Positions 3,732-30,756 of a DNA stretch of 49,371 bases are shown here, piece after piece. Under the pieces are notes generated by a model. It saw only the letters and a program-made list of their open reading frames with translations. It was not told where the DNA came from and did no database searches. The position numbers were made by a program, and so were the translations under genes. This stretch comes from a virus (lineage: Duplodnaviria; Heunggongvirae; Uroviricota; Caudoviricetes), in IMG/VR virus record IMGVR_UViG_3300039008_000325, positions 1 through 49,371 of that record; one strand, written 5' to 3'. Every line of letters begins with the position of its first letter. Within the stretch, counting starts at the first letter, position 1.

Positions 3732-4883
3732 CTATTTAGTGAATCTCTCTTTTAATTTATTTTCAATTTCTTTCTTACTTCTATTAAAACATATTAATTG
3801 AAGTTCTGCAGGTTTAATTGAAAACTTACCTTTTAACCAACCTATATCAATATTCTTATAGAATATATTAAGATAAGCTTGCAATTCTTTTTTAGTTTTT
3901 ATCTCATCGAGTTTAATTTTTAAATCAACTCTACCCGGTCTTAATAGTGCATCATCTAACTTATTAATATAATTAGTTGTCATGAATACAATTTGACCGT
4001 GTGATGACATTGCACCATCTAATATATTTAATAATGTATGAAATTTGGAATCTACTTTTGTTTTATCTTTTCTGTTTATATTTTCAAACATTGAATCTAT
4101 ATCTTCAAATAAAATAATTTTATTATTGAAATCGTAATCCATAAATGCTTCATTTACGTTTTCACTATTAATAAATATAATATCTCGATTAAATTGAGAA
4201 GCAAGTGTGTGAATAAACGATGTTTTACCTGTTCCTGGAGGTCCATATAATAAGTAATTTCTTTTATATGATAAACCACAAGTATTATATTTATCTTCAT
4301 TATCTAAGAAATGTTTTAAATCACTCTCAATTAAATTATAATTATCAATATTATATAAAGAATGTTTATCACGTTTTTGCTTTTTCAAATGCTTATATTT
4401 AATAATATAGTTAATATAATCACTATCATCTTCTTCTAAATTACTAACAATTTTAATAAGATTCTCTTTAGCTTTATTTGAAAAACATATAACATCATAC
4501 CCATTAACAAATTGTAATTTATCTAATGTCTCATAATATTTAATACCATATAAATAACCATCTATTCTACAGAAACCATATGAATCTGTATTAGTTAAAA
4601 CTCTATTATCTTCACGATCTGATGTATTATGTACTTTTTCATTGTCTTTTTGTAGTTTAAAAGATTTATTAAACACTTTAAACTTATGCTTTAAAATTAA
4701 ATTTCTTAACAACATAACATCTTTATAATTAGTGAAACTATTTATATTAACTCTATAAATGAATCTATTACTTAAAAGACTTCTAATAAAATTTACAATA
4801 GATTTCAAATAAAATACTATTGATCCTGAAGCTGTCAATAGTATTGCTGTTTTTATTGTTTCAACGTTTAATAACTCTCCCAT
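3732..4883 (-). CDS. BCS1-like AAA+ ATPase with N-terminal hydrophobic anchor
   Basis: [16 protein letters not shown] Walker A, ILFEDID Walker B, LLNILDG, LRPGRVD arginine finger; hydrophobic N-terminus. Confidence 0.85.
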
Positions 4884-4885
4884 AA

Positions 4886-5350
4886 TTAATCCTTTAAAAC
4901 TTCTTTTGATTTTACTGCTAGTTTATCAACGATTTCATTGTAATGATTTCCATTATGACCTCTAACCCAATTCCATTTTATATTATGAAGTGTATTGAAG
5001 TTATCTAATTCTATCCATAAATCTTTATTCTTTACTGGTTTAGAAACGTTAGTTTTCCATTCTTTAGTTACCCAACCATTTCTTTTCCAATTATGAATCC
5101 ATTCTTCAATACCTTTTTGAACATATTGCGAATCGGTAAATACTTCTATATCATATATAGGTTCCTTAATAACTCGAATAGTTTGAATAACAGCTTTCAT
5201 TTCCATTCTATTATTAGTTGTAGTATCTTCCGATCCACAAACTCTTTTCACAATTTTATCATTGTGAATAATAATACCAGCATAACCACCATTTCCATTT
5301 GGACTAGATGCACCATCTGTATATACTTGCAATTTAACTCTTTCAGACAT
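4886..5350 (-). CDS. rnhA: ribonuclease HI (bacterial type)
   Basis: [51 protein letters not shown]. Confidence 0.95.
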
Positions 5351-5568
5351 TATGGTTTATTCCATTTCATAAAATATAGTTTATTACCATTGATAGATTT
5401 TCTTTCTCCGTAAGTACCATCTTCTAATATATCTTGTATAATAAAATCTTTTAATCTTTCTTCTACAATGATACATTTAGTAGTACCTTCTAATGAAGAC
5501 ACATAACTACCTACATTATAACCATCTTTCATGATATAAATTTCAGGATTACTTCTATCTTTTCTCAT
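5350..5568 (-). CDS. hypothetical protein
   Basis: 72-aa ORF coupled to rnhA by a TAATG overlap. Confidence 0.7.
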   Translation of the reverse strand: MRKDRSNPEIYIMKDGYNVGSYVSSLEGTTKCIIVEERLKDFIIQDILEDGTYGERKSINGNKLYFMKWNKP

Positions 5569-25331: not shown

Positions 25332-26591
25332 CTATGTTAAATCTTCTATTCTTGTTCTTTGTGCAGTGTAGTTTTGATAGTTATCTATCTGATGTTTTCC
25401 ATATACTGCAAATACATGCTCACCATCTTCACAAACACTTTTTACAATACCAATTTCTTCTTGAGGTGTACCTTCTTTATAAGTAACTAAGTCACCTTCT
25501 TTTAAATTATGTTTTATTTCCACTTCACATATATTATATAATGGACAATTTCTACATTTTACTTCTGAATCATATTCTGTATTTAATAATTCATTTGTAA
25601 ACTTTAATGTTTTCTCATTATTCCAAATATCTTCAACAAAATTATCACATTCTAATACTGATAAACCTTCTTCCCATCCAGGTACTCCCTCTGAGAATGA
25701 ACAAGGATAAAAATCGCCATCTGTATTAATATATGAACTAAATAATGCACTTTCACAAGGTTCAACGTAATCAACAATTTCATCATATCTTTCTGGATAT
25801 AATTCTTTGATAGCTTTTAAGAATCTTTCAGCTCCACAACTATCAAATCCAAAATTAATTTTACTTTCAACTAGTTTCTTTACAACTAATTTATATTTTT
25901 CATCTGATAATACATTAAATTTTTCACCTCTACCTTTTTGTTTTAAAGATAGCAATACAATTGCATTTAATTTAGCTAATCTAGGATCTTCTTGAATATC
26001 ATCTATTGTTTCCATAATTTGATCAAACGTAGTTGAAGCAACTAATTGATGTATATTTACTTGATCCATTCCAGTGTCTGTTAATCTTTTAACTGAATCA
26101 TAACACCAATTTTTATTATGATATCTAGATACTGCACAAGCACCACATTTATCATGAATCTTTTGAGCTACTTCTTCTGTAATATTAGCTACTGTTAGAT
26201 TAGGAATAATACCTTTTTCTCTAGTGTAATCAAATATTTTCCACATATCTGGATTAGATGTACAAGTTGCATCTACACCAAATGCTATTTGAGTTACCGT
26301 TTTAGGTAATTTATCTGCAATAGTTTTATATGTTTCAAATGACATATAATTACCATTCATAGTGTTTGATTTATAACAGAATGGACATGGAACACCAGCT
26401 GGACCATTACATATAGTTGTTATTTCAATATCTGCAATTAATGGACCATATTTAGAACAAGTCGGATCTTCATCTTTAGTTCTACCCCAAGTTTCCATAT
26501 AACCTGTTATTTTATCAAAATTCCAATTGATTTCTTCTGATCTGAATATTTTGAATTTTTCTGTTTCTATTAACTTAGCTTTCATTTTCAT
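25332..26591 (-). CDS. radical SAM protein with SPASM/twitch-like domain
   Basis: DIEITTICNGPAGVPCPFCY (CX7CX2C), YINTDGDFYPCSF, CRNCPLY. Confidence 0.85.
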   Translation of the reverse strand: MKMKAKLIETEKFKIFRSEEINWNFDKITGYMETWGRTKDEDPTCSKYGPLIADIEITTICNGPAGVPCPFCYKSNTMNGNYMSFETYKTIADKLPKTVTQIAFGVDATCTSNPDMWKIFDYTREKGIIPNLTVANITEEVAQKIHDKCGACAVSRYHNKNWCYDSVKRLTDTGMDQVNIHQLVASTTFDQIMETIDDIQEDPRLAKLNAIVLLSLKQKGRGEKFNVLSDEKYKLVVKKLVESKINFGFDSCGAERFLKAIKELYPERYDEIVDYVEPCESALFSSYINTDGDFYPCSFSEGVPGWEEGLSVLECDNFVEDIWNNEKTLKFTNELLNTEYDSEVKCRNCPLYNICEVEIKHNLKEGDLVTYKEGTPQEEIGIVKSVCEDGEHVFAVYGKHQIDNYQNYTAQRTRIEDLT

Positions 26592-28117: not shown

Positions 28118-30328
28118 TTACATTAAATTTCCTAAAATATAATCAACATCTGTAGGTTTTATATCACCTTCTTCTAGTCCAAAACAGATATCTGCTTCTT
28201 CCCTATCTTCAGTGAATATTGACTTCTTTTGACCTTCCACATTTAATTTAACTAAATCAAATAGTTTTAATTTCTTTAAATTAGCGAATGAAGCTGCAAC
28301 TTCAGAATCATTTAATCTAGAATTACTTGCATTGATTCCAGGAAAATTACCTCTACCAGAATAATCAACCCAAATATATTCCATTGTCTTCATATCAATA
28401 ATAACAGATATATTATTATTTGAATTAGATTCTAAGATTACTTTTTCTTTTACTGTTTTAGGTTCAAATATTTCACCTGATTTTAAATCATTTCTCAACA
28501 TGAATCCGCAATAAGCTTCACCACCATTTTCATGAATAAATCTAAATGATTGACCAGTGTATACTTTGTTAGTAATCACAACATATCTATATCTCTTATC
28601 TTTATATTGTTCAGTTTCTTTTAACTTTGCAATATCAATATCAACATATTCTGCTGCTCCAGATGGTGCATTTGTAATATCTCCAGACATTGCTGTGTAT
28701 TCTCCAGATCTTTGATTATAATAAGCACAAGATTCAATTAATTTAAAATCTTCATCTAAGAAAGATGCACTTAAATCAATATCGACTCTTTCTGTGTCTG
28801 TATTTTTCCAATATACAAAACCTCTGACAACATTTTTATCTTCAGGTATTTTAAATCTACTACCTCTAGGTAAATTAGCTCTTTGAGTACTGTTTGAAAA
28901 TGGAACATAAACACCTTCTAAAGCTGGATCAAAGTAAACTTTACCAAAACCTTCTTTTTCTTGGAATCTTGTTTTTAATTCATTTTCACAAGCTATTTGA
29001 ATTCTTTCTAGAATACCAGCTACACCAAATATACCACCCCAATTTAACATATCTTTATTTCTTTTAACAAAGATTTTTTCACAACCTCTGATGAAATATG
29101 TATTATTATCAATATATGTACATCTAGTGTAAAGATCTAATAAACATTTTGTTGAAACATCACCAATAACACCTTTGAAGACATCTAAACAACTTCCATT
29201 ATTAATAGTTAAGTTAACAATATGTCTTGCTAGTTCAGTTGGTTTTTCTGATAATATTCTAGCAGCATCTAAATATTCACCTTTTTCTAGATTCATTTCA
29301 TATAAAGTGTTATTAGTAACAAATTTCATACTATTATAAACACAATCAAATACTTTATTTACATTTCTAAATTGTTTATAGCGTCTTACATGCCACTTTT
29401 CATTAATTCTTTTCCATCTGTTTCTATGATTCAACATATCATTCATATGTTTCTCATATGAAACTTCTAATAATACTTCTAATCTATTTAAGAATTTTCT
29501 TATTATAGGTCTTTTTATATTAACGAATTTAGTGTTTTCTATTAATGTAGTATCTCCATCACTCATATATGTATATAATTTTAATATATCAGTAGGTGAT
29601 CTTAATTCATTAAATGTTCTATTTTCATATCTTTCAGCTTTTAAAAATTCATTAATTACAAATAATTTAGTATCTTTATTAACCATACTTTCGAACAACT
29701 CATTTAATTCATTACCATTGAATGGCATATGAGTTGTAGATAATAAATAATCCTTAACATAATGTTTTTGATTATCATTTAATGATAATGAAGATTTTAG
29801 TAAGTTCTTCATAGAATCAATATAATCAGCAAAAGAAGCGTACTCAATAACCTTTGGTTTATAGTTACCAATTAATGGGAATCTTGTTTTTATTTCTTGT
29901 GTAATTTCAAGTTTTGCATTAAGAAAATATGTTGCAAGATAACTCATATATTGAGTGTAATATAGTTGTGATTCTTGCATAGTCAATACATCTTCAGGAA
30001 AGTTTTCCCACATAGGTTTATATTTAGCACCTGATTTTCTTTTAATTTCTTCATCTAAGAATTTATGGATTTTTTTAATATTATAAAATGATTTAGATAA
30101 GTCATTTATAATTGTATTTGATAATGTGTAACCATAGTGTTCAAGATACTTTAATAAAGCAGCTATTTCCCAAGCTCTTTCTTTTGTTATTTTTAGATCT
30201 TCATCAGAATTACTTTGTAATATGTCCATGTTATGTTTATCATTATCAGTATATTTTGTACCTGAATCAATAAATTGCATATGATCTAATTTTAATTTTT
30301 CTCTAAATAAATATTCATTAATTAACAT
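28118..30328 (-). CDS. large helical N-terminal domain + C-terminal TerD-like domain protein
   Basis: C-terminal YWKN...RVDIDLSA...SGDITNAPSGAAEYVDID is TerD-like; N-terminal ~480 aa helical (SPTDILK, RWKRINE, KPTELAR); TROVE-like identity is only inferred. Confidence 0.8.
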   Translation of the reverse strand: MLINEYLFREKLKLDHMQFIDSGTKYTDNDKHNMDILQSNSDEDLKITKERAWEIAALLKYLEHYGYTLSNTIINDLSKSFYNIKKIHKFLDEEIKRKSGAKYKPMWENFPEDVLTMQESQLYYTQYMSYLATYFLNAKLEITQEIKTRFPLIGNYKPKVIEYASFADYIDSMKNLLKSSLSLNDNQKHYVKDYLLSTTHMPFNGNELNELFESMVNKDTKLFVINEFLKAERYENRTFNELRSPTDILKLYTYMSDGDTTLIENTKFVNIKRPIIRKFLNRLEVLLEVSYEKHMNDMLNHRNRWKRINEKWHVRRYKQFRNVNKVFDCVYNSMKFVTNNTLYEMNLEKGEYLDAARILSEKPTELARHIVNLTINNGSCLDVFKGVIGDVSTKCLLDLYTRCTYIDNNTYFIRGCEKIFVKRNKDMLNWGGIFGVAGILERIQIACENELKTRFQEKEGFGKVYFDPALEGVYVPFSNSTQRANLPRGSRFKIPEDKNVVRGFVYWKNTDTERVDIDLSASFLDEDFKLIESCAYYNQRSGEYTAMSGDITNAPSGAAEYVDIDIAKLKETEQYKDKRYRYVVITNKVYTGQSFRFIHENGGEAYCGFMLRNDLKSGEIFEPKTVKEKVILESNSNNNISVIIDMKTMEYIWVDYSGRGNFPGINASNSRLNDSEVAASFANLKKLKLFDLVKLNVEGQKKSIFTEDREEADICFGLEEGDIKPTDVDYILGNLM

Positions 30329-30354
30329 TTTAACTCTCCTTTATATAATGTTAA

Positions 30355-30502
30355 TGTGATAATTGAGATCAGTATATCTTAGCTGCTCTACCAAACTGAG
30401 CTACTTCCCCATAGTAAAAATAATATGGTGGGGAAGGATGGAATTGAACCACCGACACGCTACTTTCACGTAACAGATGAAGGAACCAATCTCATATTCA
30501 CA
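30355..30502 (-). ncRNA. Y-RNA-like (YrlA-type) RNA with permuted tRNA-like domain, module 3
   Basis: Terminal stem UGUGA-AUA-UGAGAUUGGU / ACUGAUCUCA..UAUCACA enclosing T-arm GGUGG-UUCAAUU-CCAUC, acceptor CUUCCCC-ACCA, 15-nt linker, GGGGAAG and D-arm AGCUCAGUUUGGUAGAGC. Confidence 0.75.
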
Positions 30503-30508
30503 AATGTT

Positions 30509-30533
30509 GAAACCTGAGAGCGACTCAGGTTTC
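30509..30533. other. spacer hairpin between Y-like modules
   Basis: 10-bp GAAACCTGAG/CTCAGGTTTC stem. Confidence 0.65.
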
Positions 30534-30538
30534 TTTTC

Positions 30539-30614
30539 GTTGTATGATTATAATCAGTAATTTACTATTGTCCTGATAATTGTGTTTATGAAGGAACCAA
30601 TTATATATTACAAC
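30539..30614 (-). ncRNA. Y-RNA-like module 2
   Basis: GUUGUA/UACAAC and AUAAUUGGU/ACUGAUUAU stems; shares AUUGGUUCCUUCAU with module 3. Confidence 0.6.
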
Positions 30615-30620
30615 TTACTC

Positions 30621-30719
30621 AATACAGATTTTAATATGTGATGATTATTTCCACTAAGTTAATTTGTTTAAAAGACAAAGATTCTAGAAGGAAGTAAAAA
30701 TATATTCACAATCTGTATT
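30621..30719 (-). ncRNA. Y-RNA-like module 1
   Basis: 10-bp AAUACAGAUU/AAUCUGUAUU stem, GUGA/UCAC, shared UGUGAAUAU and UUCCUUC motifs. Confidence 0.6.
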
Positions 30720-30728
30720 ACCCTTTTT

Positions 30729-30756
30729 ATTATATAGAAAAAATATTTTAATTCAA
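30729..30756 (-). promoter_or_regulatory. promoter TTGAAT-N16-TATAAT driving the RNA array
   Basis: Predicted start falls a few nt before module 1. Confidence 0.65.

What the first reader, a model, noticed from the sequence alone, without database searches (positions are those of the whole stretch)
30380..30475. Circularly permuted tRNA-like element that keeps an encoded CCA inside its acceptor loop
Seen: the 3' tRNA half (GUUAC-GUGAAA-GUAGC hairpin, variable GUGUC, T-arm with UUCAAUU, CUUCCCC-A-CCA) precedes the 5' half (GGGGAAG, UA, D-arm GCUC-AGUUUGGUA-GAGC, A-GCUA), joined by a 15-nt AU-rich linker. The GAA in the hairpin loop hints at tRNA-Phe ancestry. Inference: cleaving the linker (RNase P plus a 3' nuclease) would expose a chargeable CCA end, so it could be a tRNA mimic/decoy for anticodon nucleases, a permuted tRNA matured by ligation, or a recently derived YrlA.
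Basis: partly seen in the sequence, partly recalled or inferred. Interest (0 to 1): 0.72.

Follow-up and report, generated by a model that had tools for sequence, protein, structure and literature searches.

The report
tRNA-mimic Y-like RNA beside Ro60-like protein
The "inside-out tRNA" is real: it is the tRNA-shaped part of one of three small folded RNAs in front of a phage gene for a Ro60-shaped protein, and it still carries the CCA tail and spacer expected if such RNAs arose from two neighbouring tRNA genes.

Summary
T-arm, CUUCCCC-A-CCA, a 15-nt AU linker, GGGGAAG and the D-arm are all present, and ARAGORN calls the re-permuted sequence a cloverleaf with a defective 6-nt anticodon loop.

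The element is part of a larger RNA (30355-30502). Two covarying stems (P1, P2), an internal loop and a UCCUUC(A/U) motif form a "handle" that carries the tRNA mimic. Two handle-only copies lie upstream (30539-30614, 30624-30716). All three precede a 736-aa gene whose predicted helical domain is closest to Ro60 and whose C-terminus is a TerD fold.

A covariance model built here finds the RNA in about 74 of 80 phage loci and 66 of 80 bacterial loci that encode this protein. At those thresholds every hit in those loci is on the gene's strand.

Rfam YrlA matches only below threshold. The Rsr-binding motif and a TROVE sequence match are absent. So this works like a Ro60/Y RNA pair but is not a member.

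NCCA starts 8 of 36 acceptor loops (0.7 expected). The window has the longest loop. RNase P opening of the loop is plausible, with M. smegmatis YrlA as precedent, but untested.

The scan met this family before on other DNA. I found no published description.

The parts
30355..30502 (-). Module 3: complete Y-like RNA, consisting of the handle (P1, internal loop, P2, UCCUUCAU) plus the tRNA-like cargo.
   Evidence: Model R1 scores 104 bits, E 5e-20, over 30344-30510. The unconstrained MFE recovers P1, P2, T-arm and acceptor stem. Rfam YrlA scores 37.8 bits across the full model.
30498..30502 (-). P1 5' strand UGUGA, which pairs with UCACA at 30355-30359.
   Evidence: Family helix 1: 95% of cells paired and 4 of 5 pairs change on both sides. 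The window carries A-U where the family has G-C at columns 17/198.
30485..30494 (-). P2 5' strand UGAGAUUGGU, which pairs with ACUGAUCUCA at 30364-30373 (10 bp).
   Evidence: MFE folds. Family helix 2: all 7 pairs covary.
30477..30484 (-). Conserved single-stranded motif UCCUUCAU (family consensus UCCUUCUA).
   Evidence: Columns are invariant or nearly invariant in A2. The 14-mer ATTGGTTCCTTCAT occurs twice exactly in this spacer, and 7 matches with up to 2 mismatches occur in the window against 0.94 expected.
30459..30474 (-). Anticodon-arm-like hairpin GUUAC-GUGAAA-GUAGC (6-nt loop). Its 3' strand UAGC (30459-30462) can pair instead with GCUA at 30380-30383.
   Evidence: The long-range alternative is family helix 3, with all 4 pairs covarying.
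30437..30453 (-). T-arm GGUGG-UUCAAUU-CCAUC.
   Evidence: family helix 4, 99% paired.
30430..30436 (-). Acceptor 3' strand CUUCCCC.
   Evidence: Forms 7 bp with 30404-30410. Family helix 5: all 7 pairs covary, 98% paired.
30426..30429 (-). Encoded discriminator A plus CCA at the start of the acceptor loop.
   Evidence: NCCA starts 8 of 36 family loops against 0.72 expected, P 5e-7.
30411..30425 (-). 15-nt AU-rich linker. The predicted (untested) RNase P site lies between U30411 and G30410.
   Evidence: Sequence. The full 19-nt loop is the longest in the sample. The cleavage site is inferred from the M. smegmatis YrlA precedent.
30404..30410 (-). Acceptor 5' strand GGGGAAG.
30385..30401 (-). 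D-arm GCUC-AGUUUGGUA-GAGC, with G18 G19.
   Evidence: family helix 6, 100% paired.
30539..30614 (-). Module 2: handle-only RNA (P1 GUUGUA/UACAAC, P2 around AUAAUUGGU/ACUGAUUAU, motif UCCUUCAU).
   Evidence: R1 scores 17.5 bits, E 0.001 within the 501-nt region with filters off, with P1 and P2 in register. The MFE fold agrees. It carries an exact copy of the 14-mer. This is the weakest of the three modules.
30624..30716 (-). Module 1: handle-only RNA (outer stem ACAGAUU/AAUCUGU, P1 UGUGA/UCACA, P2 AUUUUUACU/AGUGGAAAU, motif UCCUUCUA).
   Evidence: R1 scores 28.6 bits, E 3e-6 in the local search and 0.004 across all loci. MFE fold.
30509..30533 (.). 10-bp GC-rich hairpin between modules 2 and 3. 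It scores as a terminator only on the + strand.
   Evidence: Its role is unknown.
30729..30756 (-). Sigma-70-like promoter match (TTGAAT-16-TATAAT) just upstream of module 1.
   Evidence: This is a consensus match only and is not enriched over shuffles.
28118..30328 (-). 736-aa protein with a Ro60-like helical domain and a TerD-fold C-terminal domain; the presumed protein partner. Its Shine-Dalgarno sequence (30334-30341) lies 13 nt after the end of P1.
   Evidence: ORF. No Pfam hit. 2,141 representative homologs. AlphaFold pLDDT 83.8. TerD Z 16.2. Ro60 entries are the top three matches, Z 8.7-10.2.

Best explanation
The element is the tRNA-shaped 'cargo' of a Y-RNA-like non-coding RNA. Three such RNAs are encoded in tandem in the 442-nt spacer upstream of a 736-aa gene in a T4-like phage. 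All share a 'handle': stem P1, an internal loop (AUA(U) opposite AUUA/AAUCA), stem P2 and a single-stranded UCCUUC(A/U). In the third RNA the handle carries a circularly permuted tRNA body with T-arm, closed 7-bp acceptor stem and D-arm.

Shown here:
- The fold is conserved and covaries.
- The RNA family sits beside this protein family, on its strand, in phages and in bacteria of many phyla.
- The protein's helical domain is structurally closest to Ro60, and its C-terminus is a TerD fold.

Inferred, about 0.8: the protein binds the handles, as Ro60 binds the Y RNA stem, and the tRNA-like cargo recruits or mimics substrates of tRNA-handling proteins. The context is tRNA surveillance or repair: the phage has 18 tRNAs and an RtcB ligase, and relatives place the locus inside tRNA clusters next to RtcB or a tRNA nucleotidyltransferase.

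Inferred, about 0.45: this copy has every canonical bacterial RNase P determinant (7-bp acceptor stacked on a 5-bp T stem, G+1:C72, U at -1, A73-CCA). RNase P would therefore cut between U30411 and G30410, and exonucleases would trim the AU linker back to the encoded CCA. The result would be a two-piece RNA held together by the acceptor stem and the handle.

Inferred, about 0.6: the ACCA, the spacer-length linker and the intact anticodon arm are leftovers of an origin from a head-to-tail tRNA pair. This can be true whether or not they still function.
For: Sequence and re-permutation test.

Rfam YrlA matches end to end at E 1e-6.

Alignment A2 (26 elements, six helices): 95.2% of cells paired; 28 of 32 pairs change on both sides; covariation 0.776 vs 0.183 in shuffles (0 of 500 reach it) and at most 0.141 when slid. 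P1, P2 and the anticodon-stem mimic were not used to pick the sequences.

Model R1: 220 hits in 85 sources, all on the protein's strand, with the window at 104 bits. 80 hits in 80 bacterial loci, all on the gene's strand. All three window modules match in register.

Protein: 2,141 representatives; model pLDDT 83.8; TerD Z 16.2. With the helical domain folded alone, the top 3 of 48,161 chains are the three Ro60 entries (Z 10.2, 9.8, 8.7; 243-261 residues aligned), and the next hit is Z 6.8 with 98 aligned.

Context: homologs sit in tRNA clusters next to RtcB or a tRNA nucleotidyltransferase. The window's own genome has 18 tRNAs and an RtcB.

NCCA enrichment: 8 of 36 loops vs 0.72 expected, P 5e-7; 5 of the 7 loops of 10 nt or more have it.

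Precedents: M. smegmatis YrlA is cut by RNase P and ends in CCA (PMC4201824). The dimeric-tRNA origin model is in 10.1101/312249.
Against: - There are no expression, binding or processing data. Adjacency and strand do not prove a complex.
- The Ro60 match is fold-level only: 10-13% identity and Z about 10, in a range where helical repeats can match by chance. TROVE is not detected by sequence, Foldseek did not list Ro60, and ring closure was not examined.
- The handle has no Rsr-binding motif.
- CCA is not needed by the family. Lineages with the same acceptor sequence have short loops without it (L029 AAAAAU vs L070 ACCAUUUUUCC; L039 ACUCAU vs the window). It may therefore be a leftover.
- The T, acceptor and D helices were part of my selection filter, so their pairing statistics are inflated.
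- Module 2 is weak (17.5 bits).
- The RNAs end 27 nt before the start codon, so a role as an mRNA leader is not excluded.
Confidence: 0.8

Rival explanations
1. The RNA is a closed, never-cleaved tRNA mimic. It works as most YrlA RNAs do, with the acceptor stem capped by its loop. The ACCA and linker are only an evolutionary leftover of the tRNA-pair origin and are on their way to being lost.
For: Most family members have 3-8-nt loops without CCA. Lineages sharing the same acceptor strand occur with and without CCA. Most YrlA RNAs are thought to stay closed (10.1101/312249).
Against: NCCA is strongly enriched at the exact tRNA position in elements with eight different acceptor stems, including very short loops (ACCAC, ACCAU) where a spacer relic would already be gone. 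This copy has all RNase P determinants, and M. smegmatis YrlA with a 7-bp stem is cleaved.
Confidence: 0.4
2. The three modules are cis-acting leader elements of the 736-aa gene's mRNA, for example autoregulatory binding sites or processing and stability signals, and not free small RNAs.
For: They lie in the 5' spacer. The last stem ends 13 nt before the Shine-Dalgarno sequence. A promoter-like site lies upstream of module 1.
Against: In many related loci the same RNAs lie downstream of the gene (hits at about 4500-5400), which a 5' leader cannot explain. YrlA and YrlB are likewise cut from one precursor next to rsr. Both roles could coexist.
Confidence: 0.12
3. The tRNA-like part is a decoy or sensor for host tRNA-targeting nucleases (anticodon nucleases or acceptor-end nucleases). 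It either draws them away from phage and host tRNAs or reports damage to the Ro-like protein.
For: The phage setting, the tRNA clusters and the RtcB ligase in this genome and in relatives. An anticodon-arm-like hairpin with U-GAA-A is kept in this copy.
Against: There is no direct evidence. The loop has 6 nt. Most family members have no anticodon hairpin at all, and many modules carry no tRNA part. Bacterial loci usually carry only a handle-only RNA.
Confidence: 0.1
4. It is a functionless remnant of a tandem tRNA duplication whose outer halves were deleted.
For: The order 3' half, CCA, spacer, 5' half is what a tRNA-tRNA junction gives. Ordinary adjacent tRNAs match the same simple pattern and even model R1.
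Against: The element is embedded in the conserved, covarying P1/P2 handle (104 bits), sits on the gene's strand beside the partner gene as in about 74 of 80 phage loci, and has all tRNA tertiary-pair nucleotides intact.
Confidence: 0.03
5. It is a true circularly permuted tRNA gene (as in Cyanidioschyzon) or a two-piece tmRNA that matures into a translating RNA.
For: The re-permuted sequence is called a tRNA by ARAGORN. There is a weak Rfam tmRNA_permuted match over the T-arm, acceptor and CCA (24.9 bits).
Against: The anticodon loop has 6 nt with no assignable anticodon. tmRNA_permuted falls below its gathering score of 47, and ARAGORN finds no tmRNA. The ends are held in a handle shared with cargo-less RNAs. 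No bacterial splicing-endonuclease pathway is known (10.1101/312249).
Confidence: 0.02

Closest known systems
YrlA / YrlB Y RNAs with Ro60 (Rsr) of bacteria and phages (Rfam RF02553; Chen et al. 2014, PMC4201824; Wang et al. 2018, 10.1101/312249)
   Same: - A tRNA-like domain with the T-arm 5' of the D-arm and a loop-closed acceptor stem, set on a stem formed by the RNA's two ends.
- Several RNAs in tandem, with and without the tRNA-like part, next to the protein gene.
- The partner protein has a Ro60-like predicted fold.
- Linkage to RtcB and to tRNAs.
- M. smegmatis YrlA also has a 7-bp acceptor stem, is cut by RNase P and ends in CCA.
   Different: - The Rfam score is 37.8 against a gathering score of 69.
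- The basal stem is a different handle (GGCUAU / AAUUUCC internal loop plus UCCUUCUA) without the GNCGAA(N)G Rsr site.
- The protein has no detectable TROVE sequence, is about 200 aa longer, and carries a TerD domain where Ro60 has vWA.
- Here the CCA is encoded, whereas in M. smegmatis the CA is added after cleavage.
Two-piece (circularly permuted) tmRNA genes of alpha- and beta-proteobacteria and cyanobacteria (Rfam RF04321, RF01850)
   Same: The gene order T-arm, 3' acceptor strand, encoded CCA, intervening loop, 5' acceptor strand. The loop is removed by RNase P and 3' trimming to give two base-paired pieces.
   Different: There is no tag reading frame and there are no pseudoknots. A full D-arm is present. 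The Rfam scores are far below threshold. ARAGORN finds no tmRNA.
Circularly permuted tRNA genes of Cyanidioschyzon merolae and some archaea
   Same: The 3' half precedes the 5' half, and the acceptor stem is first a closed loop that is opened by RNase P or RNase Z.
   Different: Those mature through a circular intermediate into decoding tRNAs. Here the anticodon loop is defective and the ends are fixed in a conserved protein-associated handle.
NCBIfam NF041916, MXAN_6230/SCO0854 family RING domain-containing protein
   Same: It shares the C-terminal two thirds with the 736-aa protein (E 2e-64, residues 331-703).
   Different: The window protein scores 218 bits against a cut-off of 600. The match starts only at profile position 381 of 842, so it gives no evidence for the N-terminal part that names that family. 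No function is known for either.

Membership tests
YrlA (Rfam RF02553) | tRNA-like module with the T-arm before the D-arm, a loop-closed acceptor stem, and ends paired in a basal stem | tested here: met
YrlA (Rfam RF02553) | Score at or above the curated gathering score (69 bits) | tested here: not met
   37.8 bits, E 1e-6. Nothing at gathering threshold anywhere in the window.
YrlA (Rfam RF02553) | Rsr-binding motif GNCGAAN0-1G in the 5' strand of the basal stem (PMC4201824) | tested here: not met
   There is no CGAA anywhere in 30355-30510 (sequence). The conserved motifs are instead UCCUUC(A/U) and, in relatives, GGCUAU / AAUUUCC.
YrlA (Rfam RF02553) | Encoded within a few kb of a TROVE-domain (Rsr) gene | tested here: not met
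   No TROVE in the 137.7-kb record, in the neighbouring ORFs, or in 48 family members. The record is only 77% complete.
Ro60 / Rsr (TROVE + vWA) | Sequence match to Pfam TROVE PF05731 | tested here: not met
Ro60 / Rsr (TROVE + vWA) | Helical-repeat domain with the Ro60 fold | tested here: met
   With the domain folded alone, the top 3 of 48,161 chains are 9l5y_B (Z 10.2, 252 aligned), 2nvo_A (Z 9.8, 261) and 1yvp_A (Z 8.7, 243); the next is Z 6.8 with 98 aligned. The same three appear with the full model. Caveats: Z is in the range where helical repeats can match by chance; ring closure was not examined; Foldseek did not list Ro60.
Ro60 / Rsr (TROVE + vWA) | C-terminal vWA domain with a MIDAS site | tested here: not met
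   The C-terminal domain is a TerD fold: 2qz7_B Z 16.2, 2kxt Z 13.3; Foldseek probability 1.0; Pfam TerD in 8 of 48 members.
Ro60 / Rsr (TROVE + vWA) | Binds its Y RNA through the conserved stem | not testable with these tools
   Needs binding assays.
Handle-and-cargo RNA with Ro60-like/TerD protein (apparently undescribed; defined here by model R1 and protein alignment A1) | P1, internal loop, P2 and UCCUUC(U/A) handle, supported by covariation | tested here: met
   Window modules score 104, 28.6 and 17.5 bits.
Handle-and-cargo RNA with Ro60-like/TerD protein (apparently undescribed; defined here by model R1 and protein alignment A1) | Encoded next to, and on the strand of, a ~700-aa helical + TerD protein gene | tested here: met
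Circularly permuted tRNA gene maturing to a decoding tRNA | The re-permuted sequence gives a canonical cloverleaf | tested here: met
   ARAGORN, 76 nt
Circularly permuted tRNA gene maturing to a decoding tRNA | A 7-nt anticodon loop with an assignable anticodon | tested here: not met
   The loop is 6 nt (GUGAAA) and ARAGORN reports '(ga)'.
Two-piece tmRNA | Rfam or ARAGORN tmRNA call and a tag reading frame | tested here: not met
   tmRNA_permuted scores 24.9 bits against a gathering score of 47. ARAGORN finds none.

The most novel reading that the evidence does not exclude
RNase P opens the acceptor loop and the linker is trimmed to the encoded CCA. The result is a two-piece, tRNA-ended (possibly aminoacylatable or CCA-repairable) RNA that stays clamped by its handle on a Ro60-like/TerD ring. 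The phage uses this particle to sense, absorb or repair damage done to tRNA ends by host defences, together with its RtcB ligase. The window copy would also be a living intermediate of the proposed birth of Y RNAs from dimeric tRNA transcripts.
Probability: 0.2. Interest if true: 0.88.

Novelty: new variant of a known kind. Interest (0 to 1): 0.74.

Why it matters
Ro60 with its Y RNAs is a conserved RNA-surveillance particle, and its bacterial roles and the reason for its tRNA mimicry are still open.

This locus belongs to a second, sequence-unrelated-looking pairing of a Ro60-shaped protein (with TerD in place of vWA) with tRNA-mimicking RNAs on a different handle. The pairing is widespread in large phages and in bacteria of many phyla. 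I could not find it in Rfam 15, in Pfam, or in the literature held here.

It gives an independent system for asking what the tRNA-like domain is for.

The window copy adds something specific. It keeps a full acceptor stem, discriminator plus CCA, a spacer-length linker and an anticodon arm. That is the anatomy predicted by the dimeric-tRNA origin model of Y RNAs. It is also the best candidate in the sample for RNase P opening, so both the origin model and the processing question become directly testable.

Tried and rejected
- Megablast of the locus against phage records gave no match.
- A single-protein scan of viral contigs gave no match; the alignment-based scan was needed.
- An exact-pattern scan for T-loop...CCA...D-arm found only ordinary adjacent tRNA genes, which were kept as controls.
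- Rfam at gathering threshold found nothing in the window and only tRNAs, tmRNAs and one skipping-rope RNA in 16 related loci.
- Foldseek on the full-length model showed TerD but not Ro60. The neurotoxin rows there have TM below 0.1 and are noise.
- A profile search of PDB sequences found nothing meaningful.
- TROVE was not found by sequence.
- tRNA-Phe ancestry: the re-permuted body is closest to Met, Lys, Pro and Asn tRNAs of these loci, and the sample held only 3 Phe tRNAs, so it is neither supported nor excluded. The element is not a copy of the phage's own tRNA-Phe.
- The R1 hit at genome 65487-65646 is a tRNA-His / next-tRNA junction without a handle, a false positive by construction.
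- No CCA-adding enzyme was found in the 77%-complete record.
- Literature searches for the protein-RNA pair returned nothing relevant. The library lacks most subscription journals.
Full report
**Observation.**
The window has no ARAGORN tRNA and no Rfam hit at gathering threshold.
- GUUAC-GUGAAA-GUAGC (30459-30474) and variable GUGUC;
- T-arm GGUGG-UUCAAUU-CCAUC (30437-30453);
- CUUCCCC (30430-30436), A-CCA (30426-30429) and a 15-nt AU linker (30411-30425);
- GGGGAAG (30404-30410), UA, D-arm GCUC-AGUUUGGUA-GAGC (30385-30401), A, and GCUA (30380-30383).

The nucleotides that hold a tRNA together are all present: U8, A14, G15/C48, G18 G19, G46, and U54 U55 C56 A58. This is read directly from the sequence against standard tRNA numbering.

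When the two halves are re-joined in tRNA order, ARAGORN calls a 76-nt cloverleaf, 'tRNA-?(Ser|Phe)(ga)', with a 6-nt anticodon loop.

**The element is part of a larger RNA.**
A permissive Rfam scan matches the YrlA model end to end (37.8 bits, E 1e-6, 30353-30476), well below its gathering score of 69.

The unconstrained fold of the surrounding sequence closes the ends with a 10-bp stem, UGAGAUUGGU/ACUGAUCUCA (P2), and a further 5-bp stem, UGUGA/UCACA (P1). The RNA therefore spans 30355-30502.

The 14-mer ATTGGTTCCTTCAT occurs twice in the spacer, and a related UCCUUCUA lies further upstream. Around each copy the sequence folds into the same P1, internal loop and P2 arrangement. The 442-nt spacer thus holds three tandem modules:
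- M1, 30624-30716;
- M2, 30539-30614;
- M3, 30355-30502. Only M3 carries the tRNA-like body.

**Neighbourhood.**
The window is the first 49 kb of a 137.7-kb IMG/VR virus record with 26% G+C. The surrounding genes are those of a distant T4-like phage: clamp loader, UvsX/RecA, and a gp46-like SbcC about 32% identical to cyanophage gp46.

Thirteen nucleotides after P1 comes the Shine-Dalgarno sequence of a 736-aa ORF (28118-30328) that has no Pfam domain.

Elsewhere the record has 18 tRNA genes, all with encoded CCA among the 14 printed, and an RtcB ligase. No TROVE protein and no CCA-adding enzyme were found. The record is 77% complete.

**The protein.**
An exhaustive phmmer search finds 2,141 representatives of about 700 aa.

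The AlphaFold model is confident (pLDDT 83.8, pTM 0.81). The C-terminal domain is a TerD fold: Foldseek probability 1.0, and 2qz7_B at Z 16.2.

For the full model, the best non-TerD matches among 48,161 PDB representatives are three Ro60 entries, each aligned over 311-316 residues.

I then folded the helical domain alone (pLDDT 83.8). The top three chains were exactly the three Ro60 representatives:
- Thermus phage phiLo Ro60, Z 10.2, 252 aligned;
- D. radiodurans Rsr, Z 9.8, 261 aligned;
- Xenopus Ro, Z 8.7, 243 aligned.

The next hit was Z 6.8 with 98 aligned.

Sequence identity is 10-13%. TROVE is not detectable in any of 48 members, while TerD is detectable in 8. NCBIfam relates the C-terminal two thirds to NF041916, an uncharacterised 'RING domain-containing' family.

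I read this as a Ro60-like fold with TerD in place of vWA. Homology to Ro60 is plausible but not shown, and whether the helical domain closes into a ring was not examined.

**The RNA-protein pairing recurs.**
The annotated phage homologs (Weasels2 gp266, RpAliso gene 9) sit in tRNA clusters next to RtcB or a tRNA nucleotidyltransferase. RpAliso has the same permuted element with ACCA in its loop just upstream of the gene.

From 80 viral loci, a purpose-built detector found 34 permuted elements in 29 loci. All lay on the protein's strand and none overlapped an ARAGORN tRNA. Their flanks share GGCUAU-N-UC(A/U)UCCUUCUA upstream and AUAG...AAUUUCC downstream.

An alignment of 26 elements with flanks (A2) supports six helices. 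95.2% of cells are paired and 28 of 32 pairs change on both sides. The covariation score is 0.776, against 0.183 in shuffles (0 of 500 reach it) and at most 0.141 for slid partners.

The T, acceptor and D helices were part of my filter, so their statistics are inflated. P1, P2 and the anticodon-stem mimic were not, and they covary at 4 of 5, 7 of 7 and 4 of 4 pairs.

The covariance model R1 gives these results:
- 220 hits at E <= 0.01 in 85 sources, every one on the protein's strand.
- About 47 hits are full-length with a tRNA-like cargo. The rest are 75-130-nt handle-only RNAs.
- By my count of the table, about 74 of the 80 viral loci have a hit.
- The window scores 104 bits (E 5e-20).
- With filters off, M1 scores 28.6 bits and M2 scores 17.5 bits, with P1 and P2 in register.

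In 80 bacterial loci from many phyla, 66 have a hit at E <= 0.001, again always on the gene's strand. This is usually one handle-only RNA directly next to the gene, and cargo versions are rare.

No Rfam family at gathering threshold covers these RNAs.

**The CCA.**
Among 38 distinct cargo elements, 8 of the 36 loops of at least 4 nt begin with NCCA, against 0.72 expected from loop composition (P 5e-7). CCA occurs at only 2 of 161 other loop offsets.

The eight have different acceptor stems. NCCA loops are longer (P 0.005), and 5 of the 7 loops of 10 nt or more have it. The window's 19-nt loop is the longest.

CCA is not essential to the family. The same acceptor lineage occurs with ACCAUUUUUCC (L070) and AAAAAU (L029), and the window's CUUCCCC strand recurs in L039 with ACUCAU.

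Two readings fit, and they are not exclusive.

- *Relic.* Wang et al. (10.1101/312249), citing Sim and Wolin 2018, propose that YrlA-type RNAs arose from dimeric tRNA transcripts. The window copy has the predicted anatomy: the anticodon arm, T-arm, 3' acceptor strand and CCA of 'tRNA 1'; a 15-nt linker within the 2-17-nt range of this phage's own inter-tRNA spacers; and the 5' acceptor strand, D-arm and first anticodon-stem strand of 'tRNA 2'. Cargo D-arms of several tRNA types in the family suggest repeated capture.

- *Function.* M. smegmatis YrlA, the one YrlA with a 7-bp acceptor stem, is cut by RNase P in vitro and in vivo, and its 5' piece ends in CCA (PMC4201824). The window copy has the canonical bacterial RNase P determinants as I know them from the RNase P literature: a 12-bp acceptor/T stack, G+1:C72, U at -1, and A73-CCA. 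I therefore predict cleavage between U30411 and G30410 followed by trimming to the CCA. A cofold of the two predicted pieces keeps the architecture.

Nothing here shows that cleavage occurs. I put it at about 0.45.

**Two folds of GUAGC.**
In the family consensus the strand before the variable loop pairs with the strand after the D-arm, as in YrlA. That fold would give a complete cloverleaf permuted at position 26/27. A few relatives (L064a, L086a, L005) show a similar hairpin. Which fold is used cannot be decided here.

**Comparison and verdict.**
The locus works like Ro60/YrlA-YrlB in these respects: tandem RNAs with a shared protein-side stem, one carrying a closed-acceptor tRNA mimic, next to a Ro60-shaped protein, and linked to RtcB and tRNAs.

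It fails the membership tests for YrlA: score below gathering, no GNCGAA(N)G motif, no TROVE gene. It also fails those for Ro60: no TROVE match, and TerD in place of vWA.

It is not a decoding permuted tRNA (6-nt loop) and not a two-piece tmRNA.

tRNA-Phe ancestry has no specific support.

The scan's notebook shows the same RNA-protein family was reported before on other DNA, in at least 51 genomes. I reached the same reading before looking, and I re-tested it here. Those notes are not independent evidence.

I found no published description in the held library.

I classify it as a new variant of a known kind. What this window adds is the encoded CCA with the longest, spacer-like loop.

Noticed in passing
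window 30509-30533: A 10-bp GC-rich hairpin sits between RNA modules 2 and 3. It scores as an intrinsic terminator only on the + strand, where no gene is nearby. On the RNA strand it lacks a U-tail. It may be a processing or stability element.
   Followed up: partly
own genome C1:84333-85421 (outside the window): An RtcB RNA ligase gene (394-aa frame, Pfam 291 + 106 bits) lies in the same phage. It echoes the rsr-yrlBA-rtcBA linkage of Salmonella.
   Followed up: partly
own genome C1:~65586-65625 (L177:1590-1640): Right after tRNA-His there is a 5' tRNA half (AGGACUU-GUA-GCUC-AGGUGGUUA-GAGC-A-CUAGACUGAU...) that ARAGORN does not call. It is followed by AT-rich sequence and an ATG. It may be a truncated or intron/ORF-interrupted tRNA gene.
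   Followed up: no
L007:2156-2377 (Ruegeria phage RpAliso, OR257569.1): A permuted (two-piece) tmRNA gene, 129.5 bits, is not in the record's feature table. It lies just upstream of two permuted tRNA-like Y-like RNAs and the Ro60-like/TerD gene.
   Followed up: partly
L004:808-1108 and L056:1286-1599: Standard tmRNA genes occur in phage contigs within 1-2 kb of the Ro60-like/TerD gene. tmRNA, tRNAs and these RNAs often travel together.
   Followed up: no
L061:6835-6901: A skipping-rope RNA (Rfam RF02924, 44.3 bits, above its gathering score of 36.7) lies directly after a tRNA in a related phage locus.
   Followed up: no
window 25332-26591 (-): A 419-aa protein with a SPASM iron-sulfur domain (phrog_7293; radical-SAM-like) lies 1.5 kb downstream of the Ro60-like gene.
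   Followed up: no
window 28118-30328 (-), residues 331-703: The protein is related to NCBIfam NF041916, 'MXAN_6230/SCO0854 family RING domain-containing protein' (E 2e-64, below cut-off). This suggests RING-fused cousins of this family exist in Myxococcus and Streptomyces.
   Followed up: no
L103:1993-2293, L104:4496-4646, L160:4557-4703: These are the only bacterial-genome loci in the sample with tRNA-like cargo versions of the RNA. All other bacterial loci have handle-only RNAs, so the tRNA mimic looks like a mainly phage-side elaboration.
   Followed up: partly
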